From Candidatus Omnitrophota bacterium (GTDB taxonomy: Bacteria; Omnitrophota; Omnitrophia; Omnitrophales; JACROU01), in the NCBI GenBank assembly GCA_029261035.1, contig JAJDCD010000008.1, forward strand, positions 300,480 through 364,479: a stretch of 64,000 bases of DNA, read 5' to 3'. The notes under the pieces were generated by a model. It had not been told where the DNA came from and did not search any database. It worked only from the letters and a program-made list of their open reading frames with translations. Both the position numbers and the translations under genes were made by a program. Shown one piece after another: positions 39,958 to 64,000 of the stretch. Positions within the stretch are counted from its first letter, which is position 1. The number at the start of each line of letters is the position of its first letter.

Positions 39958-39961
39958 AATC

Positions 39962-44658: not shown

Positions 44659-44735
44659 GGTGGGCGTAGCTCAGTTGGTAGAGCCCCTGATTGTGGTTCA
44701 GGTTGTCGCGGGTTCAAGTCCCGTCGCTCACCCCA
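44659..44735 (+). tRNA. tRNA-His (anticodon GTG) with encoded G-1 and CCA
   Basis: G-1:C73 extra pair, acceptor GTGGGCG/CGCTCAC, anticodon loop TTGTGGT, T-arm GCGGG-TTCAAGT-CCCGT. Confidence 0.85.
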
Positions 44736-46546
44736 TTTGATACCCTCGGACGAACCGGATCTATTAATCCGGTCGTCGGGTTAAATTCCCGCGGCGGTCT
44801 GCCTCTTCCTTGAGGTTGGCCGCCATTTTGGCTAAACTTTAAGCGCTTCGCATTATTCCCATAGCACTTGCCAATTTCTTCTAAAGTTTCAGCCCAAATT
44901 TTTGTCAGACTGGTGTCAATCGCTGGTTTACAAAATAAACCTACAGTAATTTCTCCCGTCCAACTTTTCCTATCATAAACTTTACAAACCGCGTATCTAA
45001 TGAAGCCTGATAGTAAACTTTTCAACTTTTCCGGTTTATCTTCGCATGAATCAACAATCATCTCGAAAAGTTGAAGCGTTTGAATTTGTTCGCGAGCATT
45101 TCCTGCAAGCCTCGTCTCAGCCTTTAATTCCTGATCGAGTCTCCGTTCTTCCTGGTTGAGCTCGTCAATCTCTGTTTGCAATGCCCGGAGTCTATCTTTC
45201 ACGGTCTCCACCCCACAAACCCCCTTATCTGCTAGCACCTCAACTAAATTTTGAATCTTCTGTTCCGTTTGAGGCTTTAGGGCACGTACGCGAATCAAAT
45301 CTTCATCGAGATCTTTGATTCGGGAGTAACTGGCTTTATTAGCTTTGTTTATCACCTTTTCAATAATAGTGGGTCTCAACTTTAATCTTTTAAGAAATTC
45401 TATAACTGCTTGATCAATCGATTCAGCAGGCACATAAACACTTTCGCATTCTGCGCCGTCTGATTTGTCTGCCTTCGAGCACAAATAATAAGGGTAATAA
45501 CGTTTAACTCTCGATCCACCTATACCCGGTTTTGGCACCATTGATGATTGACAGCTTGGACATCTTAAAAGACCTTGCAGCAGATACACATATTTCTTTG
45601 TTGCATCAAGAGTTTTTCTGCTGTGATTTGTTTTCGAATTGCTCTTGATAATGTTTTGAATCTTTTCGTATACCTTCAGGTCCCGAATAGGCTTCCAGTT
45701 CCCGACGTAACGCTTTCCCTCATAATCCTGGTGACCTGCATACCGAATATTTTGAAGGATTCTTAAAACTTGCGGTTTTGTATAGGATTTACCACGTGGG
45801 GTCTTGTATCCCAGCCTCCTGAGTTCGCGAGCTACTTTATTTGAGCTTTCATGTTGGATATAAAGTCTGTCTATTAAATTTATATGTTTCTTAAAATTAT
45901 TATGAATTAGAAAAGTATGGTGACCATTCTTATCTCTTGTCATTTTATATCCAATGGGTGGTGAGCCAAGAGGACGTCCCTGCTGTACGTGTCTTACGTT
46001 AGTTTCTAAACTATACTGCGAAATGCGATCTGCTTGCCACTGCGCAAGATTGGCATGGTTACGCATAATCATTTGGCCATCAGGCGTTGATGTATCAATG
46101 TCTAAATCGAGACAAACTAATGCAACTCCGGACTCATTAAATTGTCCTGAAATCTGAATGTAATCTAGCAAGTTTCTGGCAATGCGATCCAGCTTTGTGA
46201 CCACAACCACATCAATCAAGCCGCTCTTTGCAAGCAGAAGCGCTTGCCTTAACCCCTCGCGTCCAAATATGGTCGTCGCCGTTTTTCCTCGCCGTTCCCC
46301 CTTCTCATTCTCGTTTTCAACAAAGATCTCCGTCAGCATCCACTTCTGAGGAGTTAGCATGGTGGATTTCGCTTTTACCCAGTTAGCGAGAACATCCTTC
46401 TGATGATCTAAGGATTCGCCAATCTTTTTCGCCTGCTTGTCTGATGACACCCTTGTAATGCCAAAGACACGAATAGTGTCCTTTTCTTTAAAGCTGTCAA
46501 TCGTTGTAACATTTTGCCATCTTCTTCGTCTCTTTCTCATGCTCAC
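44714..46546 (-). CDS. Large serine recombinase (resolvase domain, recombinase domain, zinc ribbon, coiled coil). C-terminus overlaps the tRNA-His 3' end
   Basis: GITRVSSDKQ catalytic Ser motif. DIDTSTPDG…LAQWQ. Cys-rich CPSCQ…C…C zinc ribbon. ORF stop lies inside the tRNA. Confidence 0.85.
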   Translation of the reverse strand: MSMRKRRRRWQNVTTIDSFKEKDTIRVFGITRVSSDKQAKKIGESLDHQKDVLANWVKAKSTMLTPQKWMLTEIFVENENEKGERRGKTATTIFGREGLRQALLLAKSGLIDVVVVTKLDRIARNLLDYIQISGQFNESGVALVCLDLDIDTSTPDGQMIMRNHANLAQWQADRISQYSLETNVRHVQQGRPLGSPPIGYKMTRDKNGHHTFLIHNNFKKHINLIDRLYIQHESSNKVARELRRLGYKTPRGKSYTKPQVLRILQNIRYAGHQDYEGKRYVGNWKPIRDLKVYEKIQNIIKSNSKTNHSRKTLDATKKYVYLLQGLLRCPSCQSSMVPKPGIGGSRVKRYYPYYLCSKADKSDGAECESVYVPAESIDQAVIEFLKRLKLRPTIIEKVINKANKASYSRIKDLDEDLIRVRALKPQTEQKIQNLVEVLADKGVCGVETVKDRLRALQTEIDELNQEERRLDQELKAETRLAGNAREQIQTLQLFEMIVDSCEDKPEKLKSLLSGFIRYAVCKVYDRKSWTGEITVGLFCKPAIDTSLTKIWAETLEEIGKCYGNNAKRLKFSQNGGQPQGRGRPPREFNPTTGLIDPVRPRVSNGVSDGT

Positions 46547-46590
46547 TCCATTTATTCATTTAGGTATCATATTATATACATAAATGGTAT

Positions 46591-46887
46591 TTATCGCATT
46601 ACTTTTTCCATACAATTTTCCGCCCATATTTCACTTAGCAAATCAATAATTTCTTCAATTCGCTCTTCATGATCCAGTAGGTTAAAGGGGTTCAGCGGAT
46701 TATCTTGCAACGCCTTATATTCATTATTACCTGCTATGCGCACGACAAAACATCCCCTACGCATTTTTAGGGGCTTTCCCTTCAAACATTTTTGTGGGAA
46801 AGGCATTTTCTTCTCCCTCTTTTTTGATCTTGCGATATTAATCACCTCCAAAGGTTTGAATAGCAAGACAACAGCCTTCAGCCTCAC
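46591..46887 (-). CDS. Small basic hypothetical protein (possible recombination directionality or regulatory factor)
   Basis: Position next to the recombinase only. No recognisable motif. Confidence 0.3.
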   Translation of the reverse strand: MRLKAVVLLFKPLEVINIARSKKREKKMPFPQKCLKGKPLKMRRGCFVVRIAGNNEYKALQDNPLNPFNLLDHEERIEEIIDLLSEIWAENCMEKVMR

Positions 46888-46920
46888 TGTTTGTCAATGA
46901 GACTGAAAGCTGATATTTTT

Positions 46921-47505
46921 TTAAACAAAACTTATCTGATCAATATAAAGCGACCCTGCTTTTGGCCTCGAATTTACATCGTCAAAAACGATCACAAATT
47001 CATTCAGGCTAGTCCAGTCATTGATTCGCCTGAATTTTTCAAAAGGGATCGTGACTCTTTGCCATTCACTGGTAATTCCACTTACCACGTATGCGGACGG
47101 TCTCGCGCTCATGTCCTTCAATTCAATTTTTATTCGATTCGTAAACTCTTTTTCGGCATCACCCTTCACAAAAAAGCTAAGCGAGTTGAATCTGCTTGCA
47201 TCCTCACCGTTTAGCTTCATCCAGAATCCGTTATATGCTGGATTCACAGAATCGACATCGTAATCCAATCTCACGGAATAGCCTGCCGAATCACCTAACG
47301 CATCATCCGGTTCAAAGGATAATTTCGTTCCTTGGGTATCATCATAAGGATCTTTATCCCAGGCTCCGAAATCACCTCCGATATTATTTGGTTTGTCTCC
47401 GGTATCAAAATCAGCTATCACGAGTTCGCTTTGTGCTGCGTTTACGACCGGACTAACCATCGCAAAAATCGCCATGACTAAAACAGCTGCGGTTTCTTTT
47501 TTCAT
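46921..47505 (-). CDS. Secreted CBM-like β-sandwich domain protein (paralog of the N-terminal domain of 31998-34148)
   Basis: ATG 47503-47505 with signal peptide MKKETAAVLVMAIFAMVSPVVNA. Shared motifs AWDKDPYDDT, YDVDS, GFWMKL, SEWQ, YIDQISFV. Confidence 0.7.
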   Translation of the reverse strand: MKKETAAVLVMAIFAMVSPVVNAAQSELVIADFDTGDKPNNIGGDFGAWDKDPYDDTQGTKLSFEPDDALGDSAGYSVRLDYDVDSVNPAYNGFWMKLNGEDASRFNSLSFFVKGDAEKEFTNRIKIELKDMSARPSAYVVSGITSEWQRVTIPFEKFRRINDWTSLNEFVIVFDDVNSRPKAGSLYIDQISFV

Positions 47506-47530
47506 TTGTAAGCACTCTCCTTTTTTTGAT

Positions 47531-48079
47531 TTAAAATATTGAAACAATGGAACCGAGGGTTCCATACTTATGCTTCGCCATGATCTTTCTGAATTCCGGA
47601 TCATTCACAAATTGCTTAAGCGCATCCTTCACAAGAAAGTCTGCGATGCGTTCCTTAGCTTCTGACTCCATAAAAGAATCAATCAACACCTCGTAGCCTC
47701 CTGACTTTTTCCCTTCATATTTAAGGACACCTTTTTCATTGATTACTCTGAGTTCGAGAACGAGTGCGGCTTTAACTGGCCGACTCAAGATATCCGGCGA
47801 TGAAAGCTCAAGTCCTCTCACTCTCAAGATGACCTTTTCACTATCCTTGCTTGAAACAAGTTCGATAATACCTTGCTGATCTTCATTCCTTTCAACCTCA
47901 AGACCCGTTTTAAGACCGATGTAATGAACCAAATAACGTGTAACCATATCTCGAAGACTATTATCAGTTGGGATTATCTCCTGACTCTCTTTTACTTTTT
48001 CGGTCATAACTTGGGGCACCGTGGCTGCACAGCCAATAACCAATGAGAGGAGTAATATCGCAAGACTTGAGATCCTCAT
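47531..48079 (-). CDS. Lipoprotein, hypothetical (182 aa)
   Basis: Lipobox LVIGCAAT. Confidence 0.55.
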   Translation of the reverse strand: MRISSLAILLLSLVIGCAATVPQVMTEKVKESQEIIPTDNSLRDMVTRYLVHYIGLKTGLEVERNEDQQGIIELVSSKDSEKVILRVRGLELSSPDILSRPVKAALVLELRVINEKGVLKYEGKKSGGYEVLIDSFMESEAKERIADFLVKDALKQFVNDPEFRKIMAKHKYGTLGSIVSIF

Positions 48080-49200
48080 GCTTTATTACCCTCTTCCGTT
48101 CGTTGTCTAATTTGGTGCTGCATAAAAAGATCACGGCCACGCTGAAGCTCTCGCTTGAGATCATCAGGTTTTGGGAGTTTAAGCTGATATTTTGAGACAA
48201 ATATTTTGTTACTCATGCCACCCGTGGCATACTTCACACATGCGCTACTTTTATTCGCGCACAATACAACGCCAATGGGATCGCTTTCTGCTTGTGGCAT
48301 TAAATGATCTTTTGCCCAGTTCAAATAGAGATTCATTTGACCGGCGTAAGCGTGTGTAAATCGTCCGATTTTGAGGTCCAATATCACATAACAATTTAAA
48401 GGAATATGATAAAGGACGAGATCCATTCGATACTCATCTCCATCCAGATTAAAACGCTTCTGTCGCGATACGAATGTGAATCCGGCTCCGAGTTCCAAAA
48501 GAAATCGTTCAAGGTGATGTATCAAGGCATCTTCAAGATCAAGCTCTGAATACTCATCTTTAAGATTCAAAAACTCAAGAACGTAGGAATCTTTTATTTC
48601 ATCTTCCGGCCGTACAATAATGGGATGTTCATTGGCTTTCTTTAAAACAAGATCTTTACGCTTTGACAGAGCTGTTCTCTCAAAAAGCGCCGCCTGAATT
48701 TCACGATCAAGTTGTCTTGCAGACCAATGGCTTCGCAGACACTCATTTTCATAGAATCTTCTTTTTACCGAATCATCCAACCTCATAAGCTGCCTGTAAT
48801 GTGACCAAGAAAGGCTAAAGGATCTGATCACATCACCTAATGCGGGCGCTTTGGCCAATTCGCTACACACCGTGTAGCGTTTTTCGATGCCTTTGTAGGT
48901 GAGGTAAAACTGCCGTATGGCTCTTAGATGGGCCTCACCCCACCCTTTTCCAAGCTTATGTTTAAGGTCTCCCGACAAATGCTTGAGTAAAGCCTCCCCA
49001 TAGCGAGCTCGATTCCTTCCTTTTTGCTCAAATTCCACGATCCTTCGGCCGGTCAACCAATAGGTAGCAACTAACGCAGCATTAACCTGCCTGACCACAC
49101 TCTCTCGGCCCTCATGAATTAAGGCTGATATGCTGTTGAGCAACTGCCGATAATCGTCCATCCGCACTGCGTTATTTCCTGATGATTTGAGATGCCTCAT
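48076..49200 (-). CDS. YhcG-like PDDEXK nuclease (DUF1016)
   Basis: N-terminal LVATYWLTGRRIVEFEQKGRNRARYGEALLKHLSGDL…GWGEAHLRAIRQFY is the hallmark of DUF1016/YhcG. C-terminal D…E.K-like block. Confidence 0.75.
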   Translation of the reverse strand: MRHLKSSGNNAVRMDDYRQLLNSISALIHEGRESVVRQVNAALVATYWLTGRRIVEFEQKGRNRARYGEALLKHLSGDLKHKLGKGWGEAHLRAIRQFYLTYKGIEKRYTVCSELAKAPALGDVIRSFSLSWSHYRQLMRLDDSVKRRFYENECLRSHWSARQLDREIQAALFERTALSKRKDLVLKKANEHPIIVRPEDEIKDSYVLEFLNLKDEYSELDLEDALIHHLERFLLELGAGFTFVSRQKRFNLDGDEYRMDLVLYHIPLNCYVILDLKIGRFTHAYAGQMNLYLNWAKDHLMPQAESDPIGVVLCANKSSACVKYATGGMSNKIFVSKYQLKLPKPDDLKRELQRGRDLFMQHQIRQRTEEGNKA

Positions 49201-49778
49201 GAAAGAGTGCCTCCCTTCACAACAGAAACTTCTTTCAAAAACAACACACCTTTTTTGGGCCTTGCGTGGATATCATCAATCACAATCTCAAATGTCTTTA
49301 CCTCTGACCAATCCCGGATTCTTCTAAATTTCTGAAGAGGGACTTCAAATTCCTTCCATTCGCTTCTTACTCCTGACAATAAATAGGGCGCTTTACGATT
49401 ATCTTTATCCGTAAATTGAAGTGCTATATTGCCAGTGAAGGGCGGATCGCTTTCAGCTCTCATCCAAAGATGAAGCGATTCATATTCTGATAAATCATGG
49501 CCCTCGATTTTAAGCCAGAAACCTCCCATTGCAGGAAGCGAAGAATCCACATCAAAGAGCACGTCTACTTCTGCGGCGTTCGCGCTAATCTCATGTCTTA
49601 CGCTCTGCGCAGCATCGAGAATGTTATGCTCCCAGGTTCCCATCATGATCTCAGCATCAAGCCGAGTAAGATCGAGTAGATTCAGTTTTTCGTTCTCAGC
49701 ATTCGCTTGCCCTTTAAATGACACGATACATATAAAAAGGAGCAATGCCCTAGAAAGAGTTCTTAAGCACATTCGCAT
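49197..49778 (-). CDS. Secreted CBM-like β-sandwich domain protein (third paralog)
   Basis: ATG 49776-49778 with signal peptide MRMCLRTLSRALLLFICIVSFKGQANA. Motifs DVDSSLP, GGFWLKI, SEWKEF, FLKEVSVV. Confidence 0.7.
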   Translation of the reverse strand: MRMCLRTLSRALLLFICIVSFKGQANAENEKLNLLDLTRLDAEIMMGTWEHNILDAAQSVRHEISANAAEVDVLFDVDSSLPAMGGFWLKIEGHDLSEYESLHLWMRAESDPPFTGNIALQFTDKDNRKAPYLLSGVRSEWKEFEVPLQKFRRIRDWSEVKTFEIVIDDIHARPKKGVLFLKEVSVVKGGTLS

Positions 49779-50508
49779 GCCTCCTTGCCGAATCGAGAGA
49801 TTCCTTGCTTCCGATATCAAACCACGCCCCGTCAAAGTCCACCGCATAAAGTGACTCTTTCTTACTGAGCCATGCAACAAAATCTCCGATCCTGTCAGGA
49901 TTTAGTTTCTCAAGCTCAAGGTATTCATAAATCCTCATCCGGTACTTGCTTGGAAAATAATAAACACCAATGCACACATCCGTAGACTTCGGGTTCTCCG
50001 GCTTTTCTTCAAAGTCCGTAATGAGGTTATGATCATCTCGCATCACCACGCCACATAGCGATGCAACCGAAGGTTCTCCTACATCATAAATACCGACAAA
50101 GGCATTCTCAGGATCTCCGAGACACGGCAAGAGAAAATGGCTCAATGGAAAATCAAAGTAGTTATCTCCACAAAAAACAAAGAAATCATCACTCCCGCAG
50201 TATCCAGAGCGGAGTGCTAGATCGAGATCCCTCACGGCACCCAGTCTTTTCTCCGGCACAAACGCGTTATTTTCAACGATGTGAATGGGCTTCTGATAAC
50301 ATGAGTTCCTGCACCATTTATAGAAGTCCAGATAAAACTTCCCGCTAGTCACGATAATGATTTCATCCACGGCACTGACCACCTCTAGCTGTTCGATTAG
50401 AAAATCCAGAATCGTTTTATTTCCTAACTTAAGCAGTGCCTTTGGCGTATCCTCTGTAATCGGATAAAGTCTTGTTCCGAACCCTGCGGCGAGAATAATA
50501 GCTTTCAT
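49750..50508 (-). CDS. Sugar-1-phosphate nucleotidyltransferase (NTP_transferase fold)
   Basis: MKAIILAAGFGTRLYPIT…PKAL signature. Confidence 0.8.
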   Translation of the reverse strand: MKAIILAAGFGTRLYPITEDTPKALLKLGNKTILDFLIEQLEVVSAVDEIIIVTSGKFYLDFYKWCRNSCYQKPIHIVENNAFVPEKRLGAVRDLDLALRSGYCGSDDFFVFCGDNYFDFPLSHFLLPCLGDPENAFVGIYDVGEPSVASLCGVVMRDDHNLITDFEEKPENPKSTDVCIGVYYFPSKYRMRIYEYLELEKLNPDRIGDFVAWLSKKESLYAVDFDGAWFDIGSKESLDSARRHANVLKNSF

Positions 50509-50526: not shown

Positions 50527-51456
50527 TTAAGAATTAATTTTGATAGAAGCGTGCATCCCGTACCTAAAGTTCCCCGGGATTCCATCAAGTTTCACTTCAC
50601 AAGAAACCACATGCCGAATCTTAAAGACCTTCTCAACCTCTTGCGATGTGCGCGGCGCTAACCTCACAACCCGCCCTTTGTAAGTTTTTGAAGAAAACGC
50701 ATGAAACCTTGCTTTTACTTTGCTACCCACTTTAATCTTTTGCACCTCTTCTTCCGGAATTAAGACTTCAACAAAGTAGGTATCTGGGTCTGCGATCTCA
50801 AGCACAAACTCACCTTTTTGGATGGGACTCCCTATCGTGTCTGATGGGTCAGTCAAAAGAACTCCATCAAAAGGCGCTTTAAGCTCAAGAGACTCCATTC
50901 CTTCTTTGATATAATCCAATTCCCTTTTCGCAGACTGAATTTTCTTCTCAAGAATCACAAATTCCTGAGTGGCTTGAATAAAATCAAATTCTTTCTTGCC
51001 CAATTCACTTTTTCCGGTCACACCATTCTCATAAAGCATCTTGGTTCGTTCACGAACCTTGTCCAAATACTTTAATTTTTCATTCACTATCACTTTTTCA
51101 TCTTCTAATCTCCCAAGCTCTAATTCTGCTTGTGTGTGTTGCTTTAAAAGTTCGGGGTTTTCAAATCTCGCAATTAGCTCCCCTTTCGTTAAAACCGATC
51201 CCTTCTCACGCAGCAATTCTTTAAGCACTCCGGAGCTCGTAAGTCCAAGCCTCGCAAATTTATCTGCTTGGAGCACTCCATCGCCTTTAAAGTCTGCTCT
51301 TGGCCAGATAAGGAAAGAAACAACGGCTATCACTAAAATTAAAATCATCTTTCCTTTTTTGCCTTTAGCTTTCTTCTTTACCTCATGATTCTCTTCAAAA
51401 AGCTGCGGTTCATCTTTCGGAGAATCGTCCGTTGGTTCTTTATTAATTTCTGTCAT
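50527..51456 (-). CDS. HlyD-type membrane fusion protein (periplasmic adaptor)
   Basis: N-terminal TM, biotinyl/lipoyl-like hairpin (…KGELIARF), coiled coil, LKAPFDGVL β-barrel motif. Confidence 0.8.
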   Translation of the reverse strand: MTEINKEPTDDSPKDEPQLFEENHEVKKKAKGKKGKMILILVIAVVSFLIWPRADFKGDGVLQADKFARLGLTSSGVLKELLREKGSVLTKGELIARFENPELLKQHTQAELELGRLEDEKVIVNEKLKYLDKVRERTKMLYENGVTGKSELGKKEFDFIQATQEFVILEKKIQSAKRELDYIKEGMESLELKAPFDGVLLTDPSDTIGSPIQKGEFVLEIADPDTYFVEVLIPEEEVQKIKVGSKVKARFHAFSSKTYKGRVVRLAPRTSQEVEKVFKIRHVVSCEVKLDGIPGNFRYGMHASIKINS

Positions 51457-55721: not shown

Positions 55722-55748
55722 AGTCGGCAGTCCACTCCTTAAAAGTTA

Positions 55749-57424: not shown

Positions 57425-58311
57425 TTATAAGTTCCTCCTCCTGAAGTGGCGGATGATCCGGCCCGGCCCGCAGCTCCGGCAGCACCACCCGCAAAACGAT
57501 TTCCAGAGGTCGCAGGACGAATTATGTAGCGTCCCGTAACAGCAGCGACCGTCCCTAACACAATTGAACCTAAACCACCTATGCTCGGCCCACCGACAAA
57601 TTGGTTAGTCATGATCGGAACTAGAATGAAAAGCACGATAAAAACAATATTTGCAGTTAGAACTACCAAGAAGTTGGTGTCTTCGGCTGCATAAATTGCC
57701 GTAAGATTCATGACCGATATGACTTTCATGAGAATGGAAAGAAGAACCTTCCAAGCAGAGATTGCAACAAGACTACGTATCCACGCATCGAGCCCGCGAG
57801 AGCTGACTTTGTAAACCGCCATTCCTGCTACGATGGGTCCAATTAAATAGAGTGCTGAGAGAAGCGCAAATCTCAGAATAAAGTTTGCACCAAGCACCGC
57901 ACCGGCGATTGCGTATGTGACATAGTTCATGACCGTTAGGGAAATTCGCTGATCAAATTTCCAAAAATATTTCCAGTCAAATGGAGCATCAAAGAAAGCT
58001 TTTGCAGTCTCGCGGAATTCTTCATGCGGAAGAATTGAATCCGCCAACAGATCCATACCGTAAACAATCATGATAAAAAAGCGGTCGTACATAATGAGAA
58101 GGCCTGCAATAAGCAATACCCTCAGAAAAAGTCCTGTGTAATCAGACTTCCCTTTCATTGCTTGTACGTTTTCGTGAAGTATTGCTACGATGAAAAAGAA
58201 TGAGAATAAAACAAATGAAAGTCTCATAAGCAATGCGAAAGGTTGCTCAAAGAGGTTTGGAATTTGAAGAACATTAGTAAATAAGAATCCGTGATTAAAT
58301 CCTGAAAACAT
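57421..58311 (-). CDS. trbL: T4SS VirB6/TrbL-like polytopic membrane protein
   Basis: 5-6 TM helices. Gly/Ala-rich C-terminal tail typical of TrbL. Confidence 0.6.
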   Translation of the reverse strand: MFSGFNHGFLFTNVLQIPNLFEQPFALLMRLSFVLFSFFFIVAILHENVQAMKGKSDYTGLFLRVLLIAGLLIMYDRFFIMIVYGMDLLADSILPHEEFRETAKAFFDAPFDWKYFWKFDQRISLTVMNYVTYAIAGAVLGANFILRFALLSALYLIGPIVAGMAVYKVSSRGLDAWIRSLVAISAWKVLLSILMKVISVMNLTAIYAAEDTNFLVVLTANIVFIVLFILVPIMTNQFVGGPSIGGLGSIVLGTVAAVTGRYIIRPATSGNRFAGGAAGAAGRAGSSATSGGGTYK

Positions 58312-59082
58312 TTAGAGAGCACCTCCCCCATAAAGCGTACTAAGACCTTCCGCAAAGTCAGAGGAATCCTCTAAAAACTTAACCTTTTCTCGTTCTATGC
58401 GTTTTTCTTCTCGCGTGACCTGTTCTATTTGAGTCGCTTGAAGTTCCAACATTTTCGCGAGAACTTCTTGATTCTGCTGTTCAAGAACCATAAGACGAGA
58501 GACACCCTGAACTTGTAACCTAGCCGCACCTTTTGGGCTTGCGTTCTTTGATTGACTCTGAATTAAGTCCGCAGCATCCCGTGTTTTTTGTCCTGACTCA
58601 CGGATCTGCCCTGCCAAATGAAAGGCATCTACAACTTGAGATTCTTCAAACATGATGTAGGAACGGGCCTCAGTGTCCGGTATTGCGCCTGTCACTGACT
58701 CAAGCGCATTCCGGATGTCCTGAGGAGTACCCCCGCTACCTAACACTTCAATATTGGGTGTGATAAAACCAGCATCAAAAAAGAAATCTTTAAGGCTTCC
58801 TCCTTGATCCATGAGGCCTCTAATAGAATCACCAATTGTGGAATCAAATATTTCGTCTAGACCCGAATGAAAGCGAAATGTTTCTAGGGTTTGGGCTTTG
58901 AGTTCGCTAAGACGATCTACAGCAAGCCCAATTTCTTTGACCCACTTCGCTTGCATAAGAGTGTTTCTAAGCACATTAATCGCGGTGTTAATGGGGTCAT
59001 TAAACGTATAAGCTTTTGAAGCGGGCGTCATTAAAACCATACATAAAGGAATGAGGATAAGAGCTTTCTTCAATTGCTTCAT
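58312..59082 (-). CDS. T4SS VirB5/TrbJ-like secreted α-helical protein
   Basis: Signal peptide ending SKAYT, helical repeats. Position between VirB4-like and VirB6-like genes. Confidence 0.5.
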   Translation of the reverse strand: MKQLKKALILIPLCMVLMTPASKAYTFNDPINTAINVLRNTLMQAKWVKEIGLAVDRLSELKAQTLETFRFHSGLDEIFDSTIGDSIRGLMDQGGSLKDFFFDAGFITPNIEVLGSGGTPQDIRNALESVTGAIPDTEARSYIMFEESQVVDAFHLAGQIRESGQKTRDAADLIQSQSKNASPKGAARLQVQGVSRLMVLEQQNQEVLAKMLELQATQIEQVTREEKRIEREKVKFLEDSSDFAEGLSTLYGGGAL

Positions 59083-61598
59083 GCAGCTACCTCACTTTTA
59101 TTCACGCCGTTTGGATATTTTTTTGCCAATCTTTCAAGCGCAGCCAAATTAGAGTCGCTGGGATATTCACTTCGGAGCCTTTTCTCCTCAGCTAGGTCCG
59201 TTGGATCTGTTGTAGCAATCCAGTATTCAAGAGGACTAGGCTCAAGCTTTGCAAGTACTGATCTTTGATCAAAAAGAATAAATATTTCCGAATAGCGTCC
59301 GGGCTTAACTTCCAATTCCCGTACTGCACGAACCTGATTTTCATTAAATCCAAAATCACCGAGCTCTTCATGCCCTTTCTTAAGGCGCAGGATATACTTC
59401 ACATGCGCGTTATTAGCCATAACACCAGCAATTTCAGAACTGAGAAAGTCTTCTGGGTTTTGACTGATGGCAAGAACCGCTCCATTCATTTTTCGCATTG
59501 TTCTAAAGAACAGTTCTATAAGATCTACGCCTTGCGTTTTTTTGAGAAGATGCCAGCATTCATCAAGTACAAGAATCTTCTTGCGATTTACATTTTCAAA
59601 CTTACGTCTTAAAGCAAACGGAATAATGAGCAGTAAGATTTCTTGAAGTTCTTCGTATTGACTGATCTTCCTAAGATCAAAGATGGCAAAACGTGAATCA
59701 AAATCAAATCGGGCGGGACGATTTAGAATCTTTGAGTACTCACCTTCACAAAAAAGGGTGAGCTCTTTCGCGAACTTATAAGCAAGCTGTCTGTCTTCGT
59801 CATCACCGGCACCATAACTTTGGAGGTATTTTTGAATGTCACCAAGAATAGGCGCTTCTTTTGGGGAAAGATTTTTATAAACATACCGAATAACACGTTC
59901 AAGAATGACTTTCTCGCTAGCAGCCCAAGCCCGTTCGGGATTGATCATCTTCTGGAGGAGTTCCTTCAGAAACTGAAGAAAAGTCGCATCGGCCTCCCCT
60001 TCAGTTGGGAATAGGACTTCTTTCGAAGGAAAGGGATTTAAAGCAAACTCTTCACTACACTCTACCTCAAGATAAGACCCCCCTAAGATGCCAGCAAGTT
60101 TCTTATAGGAACCTCCGAGATCAAGCACGATCACATCATGCTCAGACGCTTCACTTAAAAAGTGCATGAGAAGATGGTTCGTAAAAAAGGATTTTCCTGA
60201 TCCCGTACTACCGAGCATGAGAGCATGTTTTGAAGCGAGCGAAGAATCAAAGAGATCCAATTTTAACGGTTCATTACGATAAGTTTTTAGAAGCAGCCCT
60301 ATTTCCTGAGTCCCCGGCCAACTAGCTTGTACTGGAAGAAGATTTACCGCAGTTTCAGAACTCACAAGAAATGCGATTGGATTCTCTCCGCCTTGGAGTG
60401 GAAGAAGCGAAAGAAATAGCCGGTCATGATTCATATGATCAAGAATGGCTTGAGCACCATCCCCTAAATGTCGGAACCCACGCAAAACCTCACTCGCTTG
60501 ACGAGCTGCGCTTTCTTTCTTTTTACTACGCGTCATTACAATCATCGAAGCATAGAAAAGCTTATCTGAACTCTCCGCTATTTCCGTCAAAAGAGCATCT
60601 GTATCATCTTCCTTTGCAAGCGCATCATGGTTCTTTGTCCTGGAATAATAACTTTCTGCTCGCGCAAGATTTCCGGTGCGCTTAAGTCCTGATTTTTCTT
60701 TATCCTGATCCGGAACTTCTAGTGTTAAAGAAAGGTAATAATCATCCCCAAGCCCACTCTCAAAACTTTTCATACTTTTCAGACTCGTTGTCTCAGGCAT
60801 CTGAGAAAGATTGATCACGTTATGGAAATACTCACTTAGATAAAATGCGTCATAACCAGCGAAGGGATTACTTAAAAGAAGTTTCGAGCGAACGCTTGAG
60901 GGATCAAGCTGATCATTACGACTCGAAAACGCATATTTCTCAAATTCTGAATTTTTTGAATCCAAACTCGGATTCAAAAGCTCATGGCAATACCGCAGGA
61001 CATCTTCATCATTAAGTTCTTTAATCCCTAACCCTAAGTCTTTTAAGGACTCTTTAATCTCCGTTGAAATTGAATGAAGCCTGTCTCTGAGTCTTTCAAA
61101 TTCTTGCTTCTCTAGGCGGACTGCTTTTTTATTGAAAGCAATCGCCATATCTGGAACAAGAGAGTTTCTTGGTTTTTTACTCGATGGATGAATAACTACA
61201 AATAAATAGACTTCTCTTTTAAGAAAAGGTTGTTTCATATGAGTCTCGATCCTTGCTTCTGAAAATCGCTTACTTAACACGTGATCGCTCTGGATGGACT
61301 CACGGTATTGCTCAAGCAAGACTTCATCGCCCTTTTTCTGACGAACAACAAAATGAAGAGTAGTTTTTTCAGGAAGCGAATTAAGGAATCGCCGCATACG
61401 ATGTTCAAAGTCAGAGATTTCAGATTCTTTCTCAAGCAAAAGATCCCTACCTTCCACAAGGAACCCTTTCCCCAAAGATCCTGATACTCCAACGATGGTT
61501 GAATCATCAACATCGTAGAGATCGATCTCTTTTAAAAAGGAAGGTTTATTTTCCCGTTGAATCAAATCTCTTGTTTTAGTAATGAAATTTTTTTTCAT
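59079..61598 (-). CDS. trbE: T4SS ATPase VirB4/TrbE-like (839 aa)
   Basis: Walker A LMLGSTGSGKSF, Walker B ILVLDECWHLL (DEAW-type). Size typical of VirB4. Confidence 0.8.
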   Translation of the reverse strand: MKKNFITKTRDLIQRENKPSFLKEIDLYDVDDSTIVGVSGSLGKGFLVEGRDLLLEKESEISDFEHRMRRFLNSLPEKTTLHFVVRQKKGDEVLLEQYRESIQSDHVLSKRFSEARIETHMKQPFLKREVYLFVVIHPSSKKPRNSLVPDMAIAFNKKAVRLEKQEFERLRDRLHSISTEIKESLKDLGLGIKELNDEDVLRYCHELLNPSLDSKNSEFEKYAFSSRNDQLDPSSVRSKLLLSNPFAGYDAFYLSEYFHNVINLSQMPETTSLKSMKSFESGLGDDYYLSLTLEVPDQDKEKSGLKRTGNLARAESYYSRTKNHDALAKEDDTDALLTEIAESSDKLFYASMIVMTRSKKKESAARQASEVLRGFRHLGDGAQAILDHMNHDRLFLSLLPLQGGENPIAFLVSSETAVNLLPVQASWPGTQEIGLLLKTYRNEPLKLDLFDSSLASKHALMLGSTGSGKSFFTNHLLMHFLSEASEHDVIVLDLGGSYKKLAGILGGSYLEVECSEEFALNPFPSKEVLFPTEGEADATFLQFLKELLQKMINPERAWAASEKVILERVIRYVYKNLSPKEAPILGDIQKYLQSYGAGDDEDRQLAYKFAKELTLFCEGEYSKILNRPARFDFDSRFAIFDLRKISQYEELQEILLLIIPFALRRKFENVNRKKILVLDECWHLLKKTQGVDLIELFFRTMRKMNGAVLAISQNPEDFLSSEIAGVMANNAHVKYILRLKKGHEELGDFGFNENQVRAVRELEVKPGRYSEIFILFDQRSVLAKLEPSPLEYWIATTDPTDLAEEKRLRSEYPSDSNLAALERLAKKYPNGVNKSEVAA

Positions 61599-61873
61599 TC
61601 AAACACTTCCTCTTTTCTTTCTCGTTTAATCAGATATCGCTTTGGCCTCAAAAGGAACTTCACCAAAGAACTAGTCCAATGAGGCGGCTTTCCTCTTTTA
61701 TAGGCTCGTAAAAATAAATAGACTCCTATCATGACAACTAGGTTCACCAAAAGATCTTTTGAAAATGTGAACACCAACCAAAACACAAAAAACAAAAAGA
61801 AGAGGTCAAAGAACTCCAAGCCAAAAAATTTATTTTTATGTTGAATCTTGTTATGTCCTTTAACTGTCTTCAT
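61595..61873 (-). CDS. trbD: T4SS VirB3/TrbD-like small membrane protein
   Basis: 92 aa with a hydrophobic core. Directly upstream of, and overlapping, the virB4-like gene. Confidence 0.55.
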   Translation of the reverse strand: MKTVKGHNKIQHKNKFFGLEFFDLFFLFFVFWLVFTFSKDLLVNLVVMIGVYLFLRAYKRGKPPHWTSSLVKFLLRPKRYLIKRERKEEVFE

Positions 61874-61884
61874 ATTCTGTCCTT

Positions 61885-62202
61885 TTAAAAATTTGTAAGT
61901 CTCTCCAAAATATCAAGAAGCGCTCTACTCAAAAGCATGATCGCTCCCCCGAGTGCCACTAGCCCAAATTTTTGAGCTGTCCTACTGTCTCCAAAAATAA
62001 CCGCCGCGCCGGCCAAACAGATCCCAATAATAAAAAGCGGGCCTGCCACGGTATTAATCAGGAAGTCTCCGATCCCCGAAAGAAAATCTATGAGATCTGC
62101 TTCTGAGGTTGCCTCAGCAAATGCAAACCTTGCATTAAACAAAAGCATTCCGGTAAACATGAGTGCCTTATGAATCATTTTTTGTTTTTCTCGGTCTCTC
62201 AC
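61885..62202 (-). CDS. trbC: T4SS pilin VirB2/TrbC-like
   Basis: 105 aa: long signal peptide followed by two hydrophobic helices (…PLFIIGICLAGAAVIFG…GLVALGGAIMLL). Confidence 0.6.
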   Translation of the reverse strand: MRDREKQKMIHKALMFTGMLLFNARFAFAEATSEADLIDFLSGIGDFLINTVAGPLFIIGICLAGAAVIFGDSRTAQKFGLVALGGAIMLLSRALLDILERLTNF

Positions 62203-62231: not shown

Positions 62232-62317
62232 GATGAGGGGAAGCATGATCGAATTCCCTTAGTGCGGCTATTAAGCCTTGTATACCTTACTTGAGTGGAA
62301 TGTCATGCTCCCCTCAT
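62232..62317. promoter_or_regulatory. 15/16-bp inverted repeat (atgaggggaagcatga … tcatgctcccctcat) separated by 54 bp, in the leader region of the T4SS operon
   Basis: Seen directly. Located between the regulator stop (62369) and the trbC-like start (62202). Confidence 0.5.
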
Positions 62318-62368
62318 ATAGGGGCACGAAACACGATTTTTTGAATGAACTTTTAAGGGTGTTACTCT

Positions 62369-63001
62369 CTATACAAATTTCTTAACCCCTTCCCTAATAA
62401 TTTGATGAACTCGAACTATCGAAACTCCAAGCTGCTCGGAAATTTGTTTGAGCGTTCGACCTTGCTTCCTCAGCTTAAGCACTTCTCTTTGTCTTTCTGT
62501 TAAAGGCCGTGATCCCTTTTTCTTTTTCCGGTATGAACGCTGTGAAGATTTCCGGTGGGTTTTGATCAGTTTCGCTTGTATTCGATCTCGCAAATGACAA
62601 AAATGAGATTGAGATATACCTAACCTCTTTTGAACAGTCTCATCCGAATACTTCATCTCATAGAAAAATGTGTAGCATGCTTGCTCCTGAGGACTCAGAT
62701 TTGCTCTGAGAGCCAGAAGCCCCAGCTTTGTTCTTTGTGCATGTTCTTTCTCTTCAAGAACCTCCTCTTCTTCAATTCTCACAAGCTCATCGTAGGGACT
62801 CGGGGAACTTGCCAGCTTTCGTTTCACCTCAAGCTCAAAGATTGAAAGAGGGACTCCTGAATTTGAATTGTTCTCGATACGTTGAAAGTCAACACTCTTC
62901 ACCGTACGTCCTGATTCAAACCATATAAGAGATTCTCTCTCATCCCTCTGGCTCTCCTTGATAAGTCTCTCAAGCGTTGCTCTTCTTTTTTGTTCTTTCA
63001 T
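62369..63001 (-). CDS. Transcriptional regulator with two HTH segments (σ70 region-4 / LuxR-like C-terminal HTH)
   Basis: …TERQREVLKLRKQGRTLKQISEQLGVSIVRVHQIIREG… Start most likely ATG 62999-63001 with AGGAGA SD, rather than the upstream GTG at the ORF's 5' end. Confidence 0.6.
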   Translation of the reverse strand: MKEQKRRATLERLIKESQRDERESLIWFESGRTVKSVDFQRIENNSNSGVPLSIFELEVKRKLASSPSPYDELVRIEEEEVLEEKEHAQRTKLGLLALRANLSPQEQACYTFFYEMKYSDETVQKRLGISQSHFCHLRDRIQAKLIKTHRKSSQRSYRKKKKGSRPLTERQREVLKLRKQGRTLKQISEQLGVSIVRVHQIIREGVKKFV

Positions 63002-63043
63002 TTTGGTTCTCCTATTCCGCCGAACAGGGAGAACCCAACGCAC

Positions 63044-63078
63044 ACAAAAAAAGCGGCAATCCGAAAGGACTGCCGCTT
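63044..63078 (-). terminator. Rho-independent terminator-like hairpin (GNRA loop) plus T-tract, upstream of the regulator gene
   Basis: Minus strand: gcggcagtcc-tttc-ggattgccgc followed by ttttttt. Confidence 0.5.
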
Positions 63079-63654
63079 TTAGGCTTAAAACAAAAAAATT
63101 AGCTTTTTAAAAAAAACAACTCATCTGGGCACAAAAAGGGCCTTGGTTACTTAGAAATACTTATCAACATATAAAGACTCCAAGATTAAAAACAGGAACT
63201 TGATTCTAGGGAAATGGAAAGGAAAGAATACTCCCGTGTGAGATCAGAACAAACACACTACGCCTGCAAGCGGAGATCCTCCGCATTGCCGCGTCCTTGC
63301 GTTGCTTAAAGGTACGCCCCACACGGCTTTGGGTCAAATCGAAATCCGAAGCACCTCATGAACTGCATGCTCTTGATTCCAATTCGCTCCGGATGAGTAC
63401 AAAACTTTGTTTTGCTCATCCAAACCCGTCAAAGGTTTTGGATTTTTTAACGGGCTATAACAATGACGGCCCACCTGCTTCCAGGCGAGTTTGCCGCCGC
63501 AAAGATAAAGAACTTGAGTGCTCTTTATCCAAATTTCGAGTTGTCAAAATAACCGCAAATATATTTTTTTGCAAGTATTAATATTCGAATATCCTGATGC
63601 AGACCAATAACTTATAGCATTTTCTAGCCACTCCTAATTTAGATGATCTGATTT

Positions 63655-63714
63655 TGGGCAAAAAAAAAGACCTTTTTTAGAGAGGAAGGGAGTCTTAATT
63701 ACAGACTCCCTTCC
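63655..63714 (-). terminator. Terminator-like perfect 12-bp hairpin after the partial ORF
   Basis: ggaagggagtct-taattaca-agactcccttcc, then an A/T tract on the transcribed strand. Confidence 0.4.
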
Positions 63715-63720
63715 CTACTT

Positions 63721-64000
63721 CTAACGTCTCCTGAGAAACCTCTGCACGTCGCGAACAATTCCATTTAGAACAGACCAAGTTGATTTTACTTGTGTCTGCA
63801 TAGTTGGCTTTGGACGTTCATACGGGTAGGTCACTGGACTTCTTTCAAAAGACTCTGGCAACTTCTTCTCTTGTAGTTGTGCAGGCTCTTCTACGCTAGT
63901 TTCAATCTGATCATTTTTGAAAATACCAGCTATTAACCGGCATCCACCACCAACGCCAAAGACGAGAAGACCAATAAAACCAAGTCGAAGCAGCCATCGA
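63721..64000 (-). CDS. C-terminal fragment of a membrane protein (gene continues beyond the window)
   Basis: Open minus-strand frame from the window edge to TAG at 63721-63723. TM segment LGFIGLLVFGVGGG. Confidence 0.4.
   Translation of the reverse strand, partial: RWLLRLGFIGLLVFGVGGGCRLIAGIFKNDQIETSVEEPAQLQEKKLPESFERSPVTYPYERPKPTMQTQVKSTWSVLNGIVRDVQRFLRRR

What the first reader, a model, noticed from the sequence alone, without database searches (positions are those of the whole stretch)
44659..64000. Integrated mobile element (candidate ICE, at least 19 kb) at tRNA-His, with a large serine recombinase, raised GC and single-strand gene orientation
A large serine recombinase gene starts 10 kb inside the region and reads through the tRNA-His 3' end, overlapping it by 22 nt. 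Every gene from here to the window end is on the minus strand. Base composition looks visibly GC-richer than the first 44 kb, although GC was not computed. Cargo includes the OpgH-like module, CBM-like proteins, a PDDEXK nuclease and a Trb-type T4SS. The right boundary is not in the window, or was not recognised.
Basis: partly seen in the sequence, partly recalled or inferred. Interest (0 to 1): 0.65.

Follow-up and report, generated by a model that had tools for sequence, protein, structure and literature searches.

The report
Serine-recombinase conjugative island at tRNA-His
The last 19 kb of the window is about two thirds of a roughly 28-kb conjugative-type mobile island, inserted at the very 3' end of a tRNA-His gene by a large serine recombinase, an enzyme class that the papers I could check describe as not targeting tRNA genes.

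Summary
tRNA-His is at 44660-44735. A 610-aa large serine recombinase (LSR) ORF (44714-46546, minus strand) ends 22 nt inside the tRNA. GC jumps from 0.364 to 0.416 exactly there.

The reading as an integrated mobile element is supported, and comparison with relatives strengthens it:
- 13 distinct loci carry an LSR of this family (47-84% identity) abutting a convergent tRNA-His.
- Related hosts carry unrelated elements at the same site.
- Related elements sit in different hosts.

The whole tRNA tracks the host. The junction therefore lies at the tRNA's ACCCCA terminus, not in its body.

The "cargo" is conserved backbone. Five other loci show the same order: an eight-gene type IV secretion set, then a TolC/GT2/HlyD/sugar-nucleotidyltransferase module.

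A 73-82% identical relative continues past the window's end with a TraD-like coupling protein, a MobC-like protein, RadC and a PC4-like protein. The element therefore probably extends about 9-10 kb beyond 64000. No canonical relaxase and no far end were found.

Likely host: Omnitrophota.

Verdict: a new variant of a known kind.

The parts
44660..44735 (+). tRNA-His(GTG), the integration target. It is host-derived over its whole length. G-1 is at 44659 and CCA is encoded at 44733-44735.
   Evidence: Both halves of the tRNA track the host flank, not the element.
44729..44739 (.). Inferred junction interval (CACCCCATTTG) holding the crossover. The approximate dyad GGTTC (44711-44715) / GAACC (44752-44756) is centred on C74/C75 of the CCA.
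   Evidence: Inference only; no empty site or far end was seen.
44736..44758 (.). Element-side arm of the attachment site (TTTGATACCCTCGGACGAACCGG). The DNA motif is conserved across the family even though it is translated in three different frames.
44714..46546 (-). Large serine recombinase: 610-aa ORF, called as 608 aa (P0001). The last 22 nt and the stop codon lie in the tRNA.
46591..46806 (-). Small conserved partner of the recombinase (71 aa; core motif NPxNPFxxLS(D/E)EER..GLLWAExC). Candidate directionality or accessory factor.
   Evidence: Found upstream of the LSR in 27 loci. Only 22 representatives among 1.84 billion proteins. No Pfam or PHROG match. AlphaFold2 model uninformative.
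46921..47505 (-). Secreted CBM11-like protein (called as 194 aa).
   Evidence: Paralogues also lie on the host side in L022, L011 and L021.
47531..48079 (-). 182-aa protein of unknown function with a hydrophobic N-terminus followed by a Cys (lipoprotein-like, by eye; not tested).
   Evidence: Conserved in L012, L013 and L091.
48076..49200 (-). YhcG-family protein (DUF1016_N plus PDDEXK nuclease domain).
   Evidence: In the same position in L022, L003 and L091.
49197..49775 (-). Second CBM-like secreted protein, a paralogue of 46921-47505. The start is uncertain.
49750..50508 (-). Sugar-1-phosphate nucleotidyltransferase.
50527..51456 (-). HlyD/RND-type periplasmic adaptor.
51481..53097 (-). 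Membrane GT2 glycosyltransferase, OpgH/MdoH-like (below the equivalog cut-offs).
53051..54427 (-). TolC-family outer-membrane factor.
54462..54734 (-). 90-aa protein of unknown function, always found between trbI and the outer-membrane factor.
54759..62202 (-). Type IV secretion mating-pair genes, listed in window order (they are transcribed right to left, so the list runs from the last gene of the operon to the first):
- TrbI/VirB10: 54759-55721
- TrbG/VirB9: 55749-56771
- VirB8-position gene: 56768-57424
- TrbL/VirB6: 57421-58311
- VirB5-position gene: 58312-59082
- VirB4: 59079-61598
- VirB3-position gene: 61595-61873
- TrbC/VirB2 pilin: 61885-62202
   Evidence: Gene order is conserved in L003, L093, L094, L095 and L097.
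62312..62333 (-). Promoter-like motif (TGTTTCGTGCCCCTATATGAGG) upstream of trbC.
   Evidence: In L093 it occurs upstream of both trbC and the operon that holds the coupling protein.
62369..63043 (-). Regulator with a sigma-70 region-4 / LuxR-type helix-turn-helix (called as 210 aa, P0124).
63235..63537 (-). Highly conserved non-coding core (candidate structured RNA or transfer origin). An intrinsic terminator follows at 63049-63080.
63724..64000 (-). 3' part of a gene running off the window. It is the homologue of the 120-aa membrane protein that precedes the regulator in relatives.

Best explanation
Positions 44736-64000 are the recombinase-proximal 19 kb of an integrative, probably conjugative, element of about 28-29 kb. 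It lies in a low-GC bacterium that is most likely an Omnitrophota member.

Integration (inferred). A large serine recombinase encoded at the extreme end of the element recombined an element site with the 3' terminus of the chromosomal tRNA-His gene. The crossover lies within CACCCCA|TTTG, about at the CCA. The tRNA stays intact and is host DNA. The recombinase ORF now runs across the junction and stops 22 nt inside the tRNA. Serine recombinases exchange strands at a 2-bp core, so no long direct repeat flanks the element.

Excision (inferred). The small protein always encoded just upstream of the recombinase is the best candidate for an accessory or directionality factor.

Transfer (partly shown). 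The window shows eight mating-pair genes. Relatives show a TraD-like coupling protein, a MobC/replication-relaxation-like protein, RadC and a PC4-like (putative ssDNA-binding) protein in the part that lies beyond the window. An element-encoded sigma-like regulator probably controls these genes through a motif repeated in front of both operons.

Glycan module (inferred). The GT2 synthase, HlyD adaptor, TolC factor and nucleotidyltransferase are fixed directly downstream of trbI. They most likely make and export a surface glucan-type polymer, in the manner of the BgsA/BgsB/TolC and Xcs tripartite systems. The polymer could serve cell-cell contact during transfer or host attachment.
For: Composition: there is a sharp break at 44 kb.

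Recombinase: all three LSR domains are present and the RVS catalytic motif is invariant.

Target site:
- 13 distinct loci hold an LSR of this family abutting or overlapping a convergent tRNA-His.
- Tree: loci with a tRNA-His are basal and paraphyletic in the family tree.
- Similar hosts with unrelated elements (L023/L043, L018/L045, L011/L021): element side 48-68% identical, tRNA 96-100%, host flank 61-79%.
- Similar elements in different hosts (WIN/L011, L016/L043): last 25 nt of the element 96-100% identical, tRNA 71-82%, flank about 50%.
- The element-side motif is kept in three reading frames.

Foreign composition: element GC deviates from host GC in both directions in different loci.

Backbone:
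- Synteny is shared with L022, L003, L091/L093, L094 and L097.
- Collinearity: the window is collinear with contig SRR23375771_34341 at 73-82% nt identity. Protein identity is mosaic, 52-96%.
- Relatives carry a coupling protein (PF02534; TraD-type NCBIfam hit of 113 bits, below cut-off) and a MobC-like protein (NF041423, E = 4e-11, below cut-off).

Literature: tripartite glycan exporters are described in PMC13438883.
Against: - The far end of the element and an empty tRNA-His site were never seen. The crossover position and the element's size are therefore inferred.
- The window itself has no coupling protein and no relaxase.
- No canonical relaxase was found in any relative. The MobC-like match is below its curated cut-off, and a profile comparison with a Replic_Relax protein gave only 16% probability.
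- No VirB11/TrbB gene was seen.
- Host orthologues between the window and L022 are about as diverged (32-59% aa) as element orthologues (38-59%). For that pair, long co-residence cannot be excluded.
- No evidence of excision was obtained.
Confidence: 0.78

Rival explanations
1. An old, immobilised island. A T4SS plus glycan-export locus was acquired long ago and is now inherited vertically in this Omnitrophota lineage. It would serve host or prey contact rather than conjugation, and the recombinase would be a relic.
For: - Between the window and L022, host-flank orthologues (32-59%) and island orthologues (38-59%) are similarly diverged.
- The same host gene (orthologue of 34368-35606) flanks tRNA-His in L022, L011, L021 and L016.
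- No canonical relaxase, VirB11 or far end was found.
- The glycan module is fixed to the T4SS in every relative.
Against: - The recombinase and all island ORFs are intact, with lengths matching relatives.
- Similar hosts carry unrelated elements at the same site.
- Island GC is higher than the host in the window but lower than the host in L022.
- Identity to the close relative is mosaic, 52-96%.
- Relatives keep a coupling protein, RadC and a PC4-like (putative ssDNA-binding) protein, which are typical of DNA transfer.
Confidence: 0.14
2. An integrative element that is mobilisable but not self-transmissible, or whose T4SS secretes proteins or takes up or releases DNA rather than conjugating.
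For: Only a MobC-like accessory-type protein stands in for a relaxase. No VirB11 was found. In L003, a type I restriction-modification system replaces the coupling-protein region upstream of the T4SS.
Against: A TraD-like coupling protein sits in three relatives in the same operon as the MobC-like protein, which is 90-94% identical among them. This suits a DNA-processing pair.
Confidence: 0.06
3. Chance adjacency. The recombinase is an invertase or resolvase of a host region with atypical composition, and the tRNA overlap is an accident.
For: Only the lack of a visible second boundary.
Against: There are 13 independent LSR/tRNA-His junctions with a conserved junction motif. The recombinase has the full LSR integrase architecture.
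Confidence: 0.02

Closest known systems
Integrative conjugative or mobilisable elements that use large serine recombinases (Tn5397 TndX, Tn4451 TnpX, streptococcal elements; SCCmec Ccr; Anabaena XisF)
   Same: - Resolvase, Recombinase and Zn-ribbon architecture.
- The recombinase sits at the end of the element.
- Very short identity is expected at the junctions.
   Different: - Those elements insert within, and usually disrupt, protein-coding genes (PMC5704250). This family targets the 3' terminus of tRNA-His and leaves the gene intact.
- Sequence is distant: XisF 113 bits against a cut-off of 375, Ccr 49-91 bits against 700-900, and at most 26% identity to plasmid LSRs.
- Here a conserved small partner gene lies upstream of the recombinase.
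tRNA-targeting genomic islands and ICEs with tyrosine integrases (the Islander signature; for example ICEs at tRNA-Phe or tRNA-Gly)
   Same: A tRNA gene is the landing site, the target stays functional, and the integrase gene lies next to the tRNA.
   Different: The recombinase family is unrelated. No displaced tRNA fragment or long direct repeat is present or expected. [quoted passage not shown] The main text of the largest LSR catalogue never mentions tRNA (PMC10083194).
Trb/VirB-type (P-type) and F-type conjugative type IV secretion systems
   Same: The gene order is pilin, VirB3, VirB4, VirB5, VirB6, VirB8, VirB9, VirB10. Relatives have a TraD-like coupling protein.
   Different: VirB4 scores best with the F-type TraC model (295 bits against a cut-off of 567) and is at most 25% identical to plasmid TraC proteins. 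There is no VirB11/TrbB and no canonical relaxase. A glycan-export module is fused to the operon.
Tripartite synthase-dependent glucan exporters (BgsA/BgsB/TolC of Sinorhizobium; the Xcs cellulose system of Thermosynechococcus)
   Same: A GT2 synthase, a HlyD-type adaptor and a TolC-type outer-membrane factor.
   Different: Here all three genes and a nucleotidyltransferase are adjacent and sit on a mobile element directly downstream of trbI. The GT2 is OpgH/MdoH-like and below the equivalog cut-offs. The product and any c-di-GMP control are unknown.

Membership tests
Large serine recombinase (integrase type) | N-terminal resolvase catalytic domain with the catalytic serine | tested here: met
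   PF00239, E = 1e-21. R30-V31-S32 (P0001 numbering) is invariant in 35 homologues.
Large serine recombinase (integrase type) | Recombinase domain and zinc-ribbon domain C-terminal to the catalytic domain | tested here: met
   PF07508, E = 6e-11, and PF13408, E = 8e-14, both above their cut-offs.
Large serine recombinase (integrase type) | Catalyses attP x attB integration at a 2-bp core | not testable with these tools
   Only one junction was seen. The crossover interval 44729-44739 is inferred.
Integrative conjugative element | Integrase at a defined chromosomal site, with both element ends identified | tested here: inconclusive
   The left junction at the tRNA-His 3' end is defined to about 11 nt. 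The right end is outside the window and was not found in relatives.
Integrative conjugative element | Mating-pair formation genes, including VirB4 | tested here: met
Integrative conjugative element | Type IV coupling protein | tested here: inconclusive
   Absent from the window. Present in the collinear relatives L093, L094 and L095 (PF02534; TraD-type NCBIfam match below cut-off).
Integrative conjugative element | Relaxase and transfer origin | tested here: inconclusive
   No canonical relaxase in the window or in relatives. Only a 255-aa MobC/replication-relaxation-like protein was found (NF041423, E = 4e-11, 42.6 bits against a cut-off of 200; hhalign probability 16%).
tRNA-targeting island of the tyrosine-integrase type (Islander signature) | Tyrosine recombinase integrase | tested here: not met
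   The only recombinase is of the serine family.
tRNA-targeting island of the tyrosine-integrase type (Islander signature) | The island carries a copy of the tRNA 3' part, leaving a displaced tRNA fragment as a direct repeat | tested here: not met
   No repeat in the window or in relatives. The tRNA body tracks the host, not the element.
IncP/Ti-type Trb system (MPF-T) | TrbE/VirB4 equivalog and a TrbB/VirB11 ATPase | tested here: not met
   TrbE models score 39-58 bits against cut-offs of 810-1322. The best model is F-type TraC, also below its cut-off. No VirB11 gene was found in the window or in relatives.
OpgH/MdoH glucan glucosyltransferase | Score above the equivalog cut-off | tested here: not met
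   Best score is 160 bits against a cut-off of 419. This is a GT2 family-level resemblance only.
Tripartite GT2 / adaptor / TolC glycan exporter | The three components are encoded together | tested here: met
   Adjacent genes span 50527-54427. The same set occurs in L003, L022, L091 and L094.
Tripartite GT2 / adaptor / TolC glycan exporter | Makes and exports a polysaccharide | not testable with these tools
   Inference from domain content and from PMC13438883.
XisF / Ccr recombinases | Score above the NCBIfam equivalog cut-off | tested here: not met
   XisF scores 113 against 375. CcrA, CcrB and CcrC score 49-91 against 700-900.

The most novel reading that the evidence does not exclude
This would be the first described family of large serine recombinases whose ancestral and conserved target is a tRNA gene. 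The target is the CCA terminus of tRNA-His, with the T-arm serving as one half-site. The recombinase ORF ends in host DNA, so its C-terminus changes on excision. A dedicated small partner protein may be the directionality factor. The family would drive a previously undescribed conjugative element family of Omnitrophota. That backbone couples a divergent T4SS to a tripartite glycan exporter, a non-canonical MobC-like DNA-processing protein and a highly conserved 300-nt structured non-coding element.
Probability: 0.45. Interest if true: 0.72.

Novelty: new variant of a known kind. Interest (0 to 1): 0.6.

Why it matters
- Target rule. The papers I could check treat tRNA genes as landing sites for tyrosine integrases only. 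A serine-recombinase family with tRNA-His as its conserved target would break that rule. It would also show how an enzyme with a 2-bp crossover can use a tRNA gene without damaging it, by cutting at the very end.
- Tool value. Serine integrases need only short sites and no host factors, and tRNA-His 3' ends are conserved. Such enzymes could therefore be useful insertion tools for uncultivated or hard-to-engineer bacteria.
- Biology of the host group. The element gives a first concrete conjugative-type element for Omnitrophota, a phylum of very small, probably host-dependent bacteria known almost only from metagenomes.
- Testable link. The element ties DNA-transfer machinery to surface-glycan export in a way that can be tested.

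Tried and rejected
1. Crossover in the anticodon loop, with the element supplying the tRNA 3' half. L020 (LSR followed by a tRNA 3' fragment only) and a G4-U69 wobble suggested this. I rejected it because both tRNA halves track the host flank and not the element. L020 is better read as insertion next to a tRNA-His 3' fragment that is followed by a speH-like gene.
2. A direct repeat of the tRNA 3' end. None was found in the window or in relatives.
3. An inverted copy of the element-side arm at the presumed far ends of L093, L094 and L095 and in the last 2.5 kb of the window (61.5-64.0 kb). The best candidates still had 7-8 mismatches in 21 nt.
4. Reaching the source contig beyond 64000.
   - The 465,966-bp NCBI contig is listed for P0001, P0121 and P0124 but cannot be retrieved.
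   - The source genome is not in genome contigs.
   - The Logan contigs from this sample are only 1-4 kb long.
5. The break between Logan contigs inside the tRNA (L002 ends at 44687, L004 begins at 44658, a 30-nt overlap). It cannot be interpreted, because any other tRNA-His allele in the sample would cause it.
6. Phage origin. Only one family member occurs in IMG/VR, and it is not of the tRNA type. No phage genes were seen.
7. Structure of the small partner protein. The AlphaFold2 model has pLDDT 59 and was not searched further.
8. The 255-aa protein as a member of Replic_Relax. Pairwise E = 3e-4 over the N-terminus only; hhalign probability 16%; no Pfam match. Only the NCBIfam MobC-like match below cut-off stands.
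9. orf90 as PC4-like, which I suspected by eye. Pfam does not support it.

Full report
**1. The observation**

ARAGORN finds tRNA-His(GTG) at 44660-44735 on the plus strand, and Rfam agrees (62.9 bits). The base before it (44659) is G, the G-1 typical of bacterial tRNA-His, and CCA is encoded.

ORF 44714-46546 on the minus strand (610 aa; public gene calls give 608 aa, P0001) carries Resolvase, Recombinase and Zn_ribbon_recom domains above Pfam cut-offs. The gene starts 1.9 kb inside the region, not 10 kb.

The compositional shift is real and sharp.

| Measure | Host part | Island part |
|---|---|---|
| GC | 0.364 (1-44659) | 0.416 (44736-64000) |
| GC3 of genes | 0.305 | 0.390 (Mann-Whitney p = 1e-6) |
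| Tetranucleotide distance to the host mean | 0.10-0.19 | 0.25-0.32 |

All supported genes after 44.7 kb are on the minus strand. So are most large ORFs in the first 38 kb, so orientation distinguishes nothing.

**2. Gene content of the window part**

From the tRNA inwards, in order:
- the large serine recombinase (LSR);
- a 71-aa protein;
- a CBM11-like secreted protein;
- a 182-aa protein of unknown function;
- a YhcG-type DUF1016/PDDEXK protein;
- a second CBM-like protein;
- a sugar-1-phosphate nucleotidyltransferase;
- a HlyD-type adaptor;
- an OpgH/MdoH-like GT2;
- a TolC-family protein;
- a 90-aa protein;
- the secretion genes TrbI/VirB10, TrbG/VirB9, a VirB8-position gene, TrbL/VirB6, a VirB5-position gene, VirB4, a VirB3-position gene and the TrbC/VirB2 pilin;
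- a regulator with a sigma-70 region-4 helix-turn-helix;
- a 650-nt non-coding stretch;
- the 3' end of a gene that runs off the window.

No NCBIfam equivalog cut-off is reached by any of these. VirB4 scores best with F-type TraC and is at most 25% identical to plasmid TraC proteins. The LSR is at most 26% identical to plasmid-borne LSRs.

**3. The recombinase family and its target**

A protein search found about 70 homologues at 46-82% identity. A scan of metagenome contigs with their alignment returned 42 family loci.

In 13 distinct loci, counting the window, a convergent tRNA-His(GTG) abuts or overlaps the 3' end of the LSR gene. These are the window, L011, L016, L017, L018/19, L021, L022, L023, L024, L027 (= L008, L010), L043/44, L045/48 and L049. 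A bacterial genome typically has only one or a few tRNA-His genes, so chance cannot explain this.

In a neighbour-joining tree the tRNA-His loci are basal and paraphyletic. One derived clade has no tRNA downstream of the LSR. tRNA-His is therefore the ancestral target, and one subclade switched target.

Cargo next to the LSR differs between loci:
- an RND efflux system with DsbA proteins in L008;
- type III restriction-modification genes in L018;
- a Replic_Relax gene set in L005.

**4. Where the junction is**

I first thought the element supplied the tRNA 3' half. In L020 an LSR is followed by a tRNA-His fragment reaching only to the anticodon loop. Pairwise comparison refutes this idea.

| Pair type | Pairs | Element side | tRNA | Host flank |
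|---|---|---|---|---|
| Related elements, different hosts | window/L011, L016/L043 | 96-100% (last 25 nt) | 80-82% (3' half), 71-74% (5' half) | about 50% (unrelated) |
| Related hosts, unrelated elements | L023/L043, L018/L045, L011/L021 | 48-68% | 96-100% (both halves) | 61-79% |

So the entire tRNA is host DNA. The nearest differences on either side bracket the junction to CACCCCA|TTTG, window 44729-44739.

The element side carries a conserved 23-nt motif. In the recombinase's reading direction it is GGTTCG(C/T)nGGAGGGTA(A/T)CAAA. It is retained although it is translated in three different frames:
- frame A: ...RVSNGVSDGT*
- frame B: ...GEEHMG*
- frame C: read-through ...WATGIEPATPRSTILCSNQLSYAHH...

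That is a DNA-level constraint, as expected for an attachment-site arm.

Its GGTTC and the T-arm GGTTC form an approximate dyad centred on C74/C75 of the CCA (44733/44734). Two element types (L018, L027) have AA instead of TG at the first two tRNA-side positions. This places those two bases on the element side and suggests a core at about C73-C75. All of this is inference from one junction type.

Three consequences follow:
- The LSR ORF crosses the junction. Its last codons and its stop are host-encoded, and in some relatives more than 30 codons are, reading through the whole tRNA.
- The tRNA stays intact.
Indeed no repeat exists in the window or in relatives.

The same comparison is also the best evidence of mobility. 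The same site in closely related hosts is occupied by unrelated elements.

**5. A conserved partner gene**

A small ORF lies directly upstream of the LSR and in the same orientation (window 46591-46806, 71 aa). It is found in 27 family loci, in both the tRNA clades and the non-tRNA clade. Its core motif is NPxNP(F/Y)xxLS(D/E)EER(L/M)KDFxExxGLLWAExC.

It has no Pfam or PHROG match. Only 22 representatives occur among 1.84 billion clustered proteins. An AlphaFold2 model was of low confidence (pLDDT 59). Calling it a directionality or accessory factor rests on linkage alone.

**6. The "cargo" is backbone**

The order trbG, trbI, 90-aa gene, TolC-like, GT2, HlyD-like, nucleotidyltransferase, YhcG recurs in several loci.

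| Locus | Source | Similarity to the window |
|---|---|---|
| L022 | metagenome contig; LSR and tRNA-His follow | 38-59% aa |
| L003 | "Candidatus Omnitrophica" MAG | VirB4 53% |
| L091/L093 | Logan contig SRR23375771_34341 | see below |
| L094 | Logan contig | SigHTH regulator 51% aa |
| L097 | ENA contig | SigHTH regulator 61% aa |

L095 shows the same trb operon but is cut off before trbG.

The 53-kb Logan contig is collinear with window 45950-63819 at 73-82% nt identity. Protein identities are mosaic: 96% for the LSR N-terminus, 93% for TrbL, 52% for the regulator and 63% for YhcG. This mosaic pattern suggests recombination among elements.

GT2 plus adaptor plus TolC is a known tripartite design for glucan export. 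Examples are BgsA/BgsB/TolC and the cyanobacterial Xcs system (PMC13438883). Its fixed position behind trbI suggests a role tied to the secretion system, such as cell-cell contact. That role is speculation.

**7. What lies beyond the window**

In L093, L094 and L095 the regulator is preceded by these genes, read outwards:
- a 120-aa membrane protein, whose homologue is the partial ORF at 63724-64000 (46% identical);
- a DUF6573 protein;
- a variable block (Amidoligase_2 plus GATase in L093, ThiF plus JAB in L095, neither in L094);
- RadC;
- a PC4-like (putative ssDNA-binding) protein;
- a 592-612-aa coupling protein (PF02534; TraD-type NCBIfam models at 114 bits, below cut-off);
- a protein of 239-256 aa;
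- a 146-aa protein;
- a 125-aa Cys-rich protein.

The 239-256-aa protein is 90-94% identical among the three relatives, far more than its neighbours. It matches the NCBIfam "MobC family replication-relaxation protein" model at E = 4e-11 but below the cut-off. Its link to Pfam Replic_Relax is weak. It is the only relaxase candidate.

No VirB11 was seen. By synteny the window's element should run about 9-10 kb past 64000, for a total of about 28-29 kb.

I could not find the far end:
- There is no tRNA fragment and no convincing inverted copy of the element arm in the leftmost parts of L093-L095.
- Homology between L093 and L095 continues to the limit of the sequence held.
- A LacI-family gene ends at L093:97, but whether it is host or element is unknown.

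**8. Host and history**

The host side of L022 is syntenic with window 27.9-35.6 kb, including tmRNA and smpB. The orthologue of 34368-35606 lies directly beside tRNA-His in L022, L011, L021 and L016. The closest T4SS in genome collections is in an Omnitrophica MAG, and one LSR homologue is named as Omnitrophica. The source is therefore most likely an Omnitrophota genome of about 36% GC.

Between the window and L022, host and element orthologues are similarly diverged, so long co-residence cannot be excluded for that pair. Against a purely vertical history:
- Element GC is above the host in the window but below the host in L022 and five other loci.
- Site reuse: different elements reuse the same site (section 4).
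- Element identity to the close relative is mosaic (section 6).

**9. Comparison with what is known**

Serine-recombinase elements are described as inserting inside protein-coding genes and disrupting them, with only 2-bp identity at the junctions (PMC5704250).
- The main text of the largest LSR catalogue classifies targets by protein-coding gene cluster and never mentions tRNA (PMC10083194).
- I found no later report of a tRNA-targeting LSR with the searches available. I cannot exclude that large island databases contain examples.

The element works like an ICE. It fails the tyrosine-integrase island signature, the IncP Trb equivalogs, and the OpgH, XisF and Ccr equivalogs. These are family-level resemblances only.

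**10. Verdict**

The added value from this stage is:
- the family-wide tRNA-His targeting by a serine recombinase;
- the junction at the tRNA's CCA end, with the ORF crossing into host DNA;
- the conserved small partner protein;
- the recognition that the T4SS and glycan module are backbone;
- the predicted missing third of the element;
- a highly conserved non-coding element next to the regulator.

Rating: a new variant of a known kind, of moderate-to-good interest.

Noticed in passing
window 63235-63537 (minus strand), with terminator at 63049-63080: A 303-nt non-coding core is 85-96% identical among five or more related elements. Its flanks are 50-80% identical and the adjacent regulator protein only 51-61%. 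No reading frame is open in all copies, and substitutions show no 3-nt periodicity. The RNA fold has z = -5.2. A few compensatory changes occur in predicted hairpins. There is no Rfam match. It is a candidate structured ncRNA or transfer origin. Gene callers placed spurious ORFs here on either strand.
   Followed up: partly
window 62312-62333 (minus); L093 1110-1124 and 10672-10686: The promoter-like motif TTCGTGCCCCTATAT lies upstream of trbC. In the close relative it also lies upstream of the operon holding the coupling protein. It may be the target of the element's sigma-like regulator.
   Followed up: partly
window 35774-44583: A 9-kb block, mostly on the plus strand, sits between tRNA-His and the host gene that directly flanks tRNA-His in four related loci. 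It holds a PP2C phosphatase, a Ser/Thr kinase, a glyoxalase, a THAP4-like haem-binding protein and a 243-aa protein without a recorded Pfam match. GC is host-like (0.385). It may be a lineage-specific insertion or rearrangement.
   Followed up: no
L020 1863-2483: An LSR of the family is followed by only the 3' part of tRNA-His, reaching to the anticodon loop, then by unrelated DNA with a speH-like gene. The recombinase may accept a displaced tRNA-His fragment as its target.
   Followed up: partly
P0004, P0007, P0010, P0017, P0019, P0023 (LSR homologues); L022 8401-10341: In some relatives the recombinase ORF reads through the whole tRNA-His complement into host DNA (...IEPATPRSTILCSNQLSYAHH...). 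More than 30 C-terminal residues are then host-encoded in the integrated state.
   Followed up: partly
L093 1776-2546; L094 2905-3624; L095 1509-2276: A protein of 239-256 aa with an N-terminal stretch like the start of a Replic_Relax protein and, by eye, a PD-(D/E)xK-like motif lies next to the coupling protein. It is 90-94% identical among elements whose other proteins are far more diverged. It gives a MobC/replication-relaxation-like match below cut-off and is a candidate non-canonical relaxase.
   Followed up: partly
L015/L018 (one 41-kb contig) and L045 19-1206: A second, different LSR gene lies about 10-13 kb upstream of the tRNA-His-type LSR in two unrelated contigs. These are either two-recombinase elements or tandem or nested insertions.
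   Followed up: no
L025, L028-L039, L042, L051, L005: A derived clade of the LSR family has no tRNA after the gene and has different C-termini, which suggests a target switch. The small partner gene is kept in most of these loci where the upstream sequence is held.
   Followed up: no
window 44658-44687: Two Logan contigs from SRR15505518 end here with a 30-nt (k-1) overlap inside the 5' half of tRNA-His. This marks a branch in the assembly graph of that sample. The cause is unknown.
   Followed up: no
window 27380-27787, 715-5460 and 17993-22717: The host part holds a tmRNA with a long tag (ADKNISLGDRVELHNVNFAPVALPLAA), similar to that in L022. It also holds two very large ORFs (1581 and 1574 aa) that I did not examine.
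   Followed up: no
window 46921-47505 and 49197-49775; L022 11887-12462; L011 3822-4568; L021 5380-6159: CBM11-like secreted proteins occur both on the island and in host genes next to tRNA-His. The host copies include the N-terminus of a 716-aa host protein orthologue. These may be glycan-binding proteins matched to the exported polymer.
   Followed up: no
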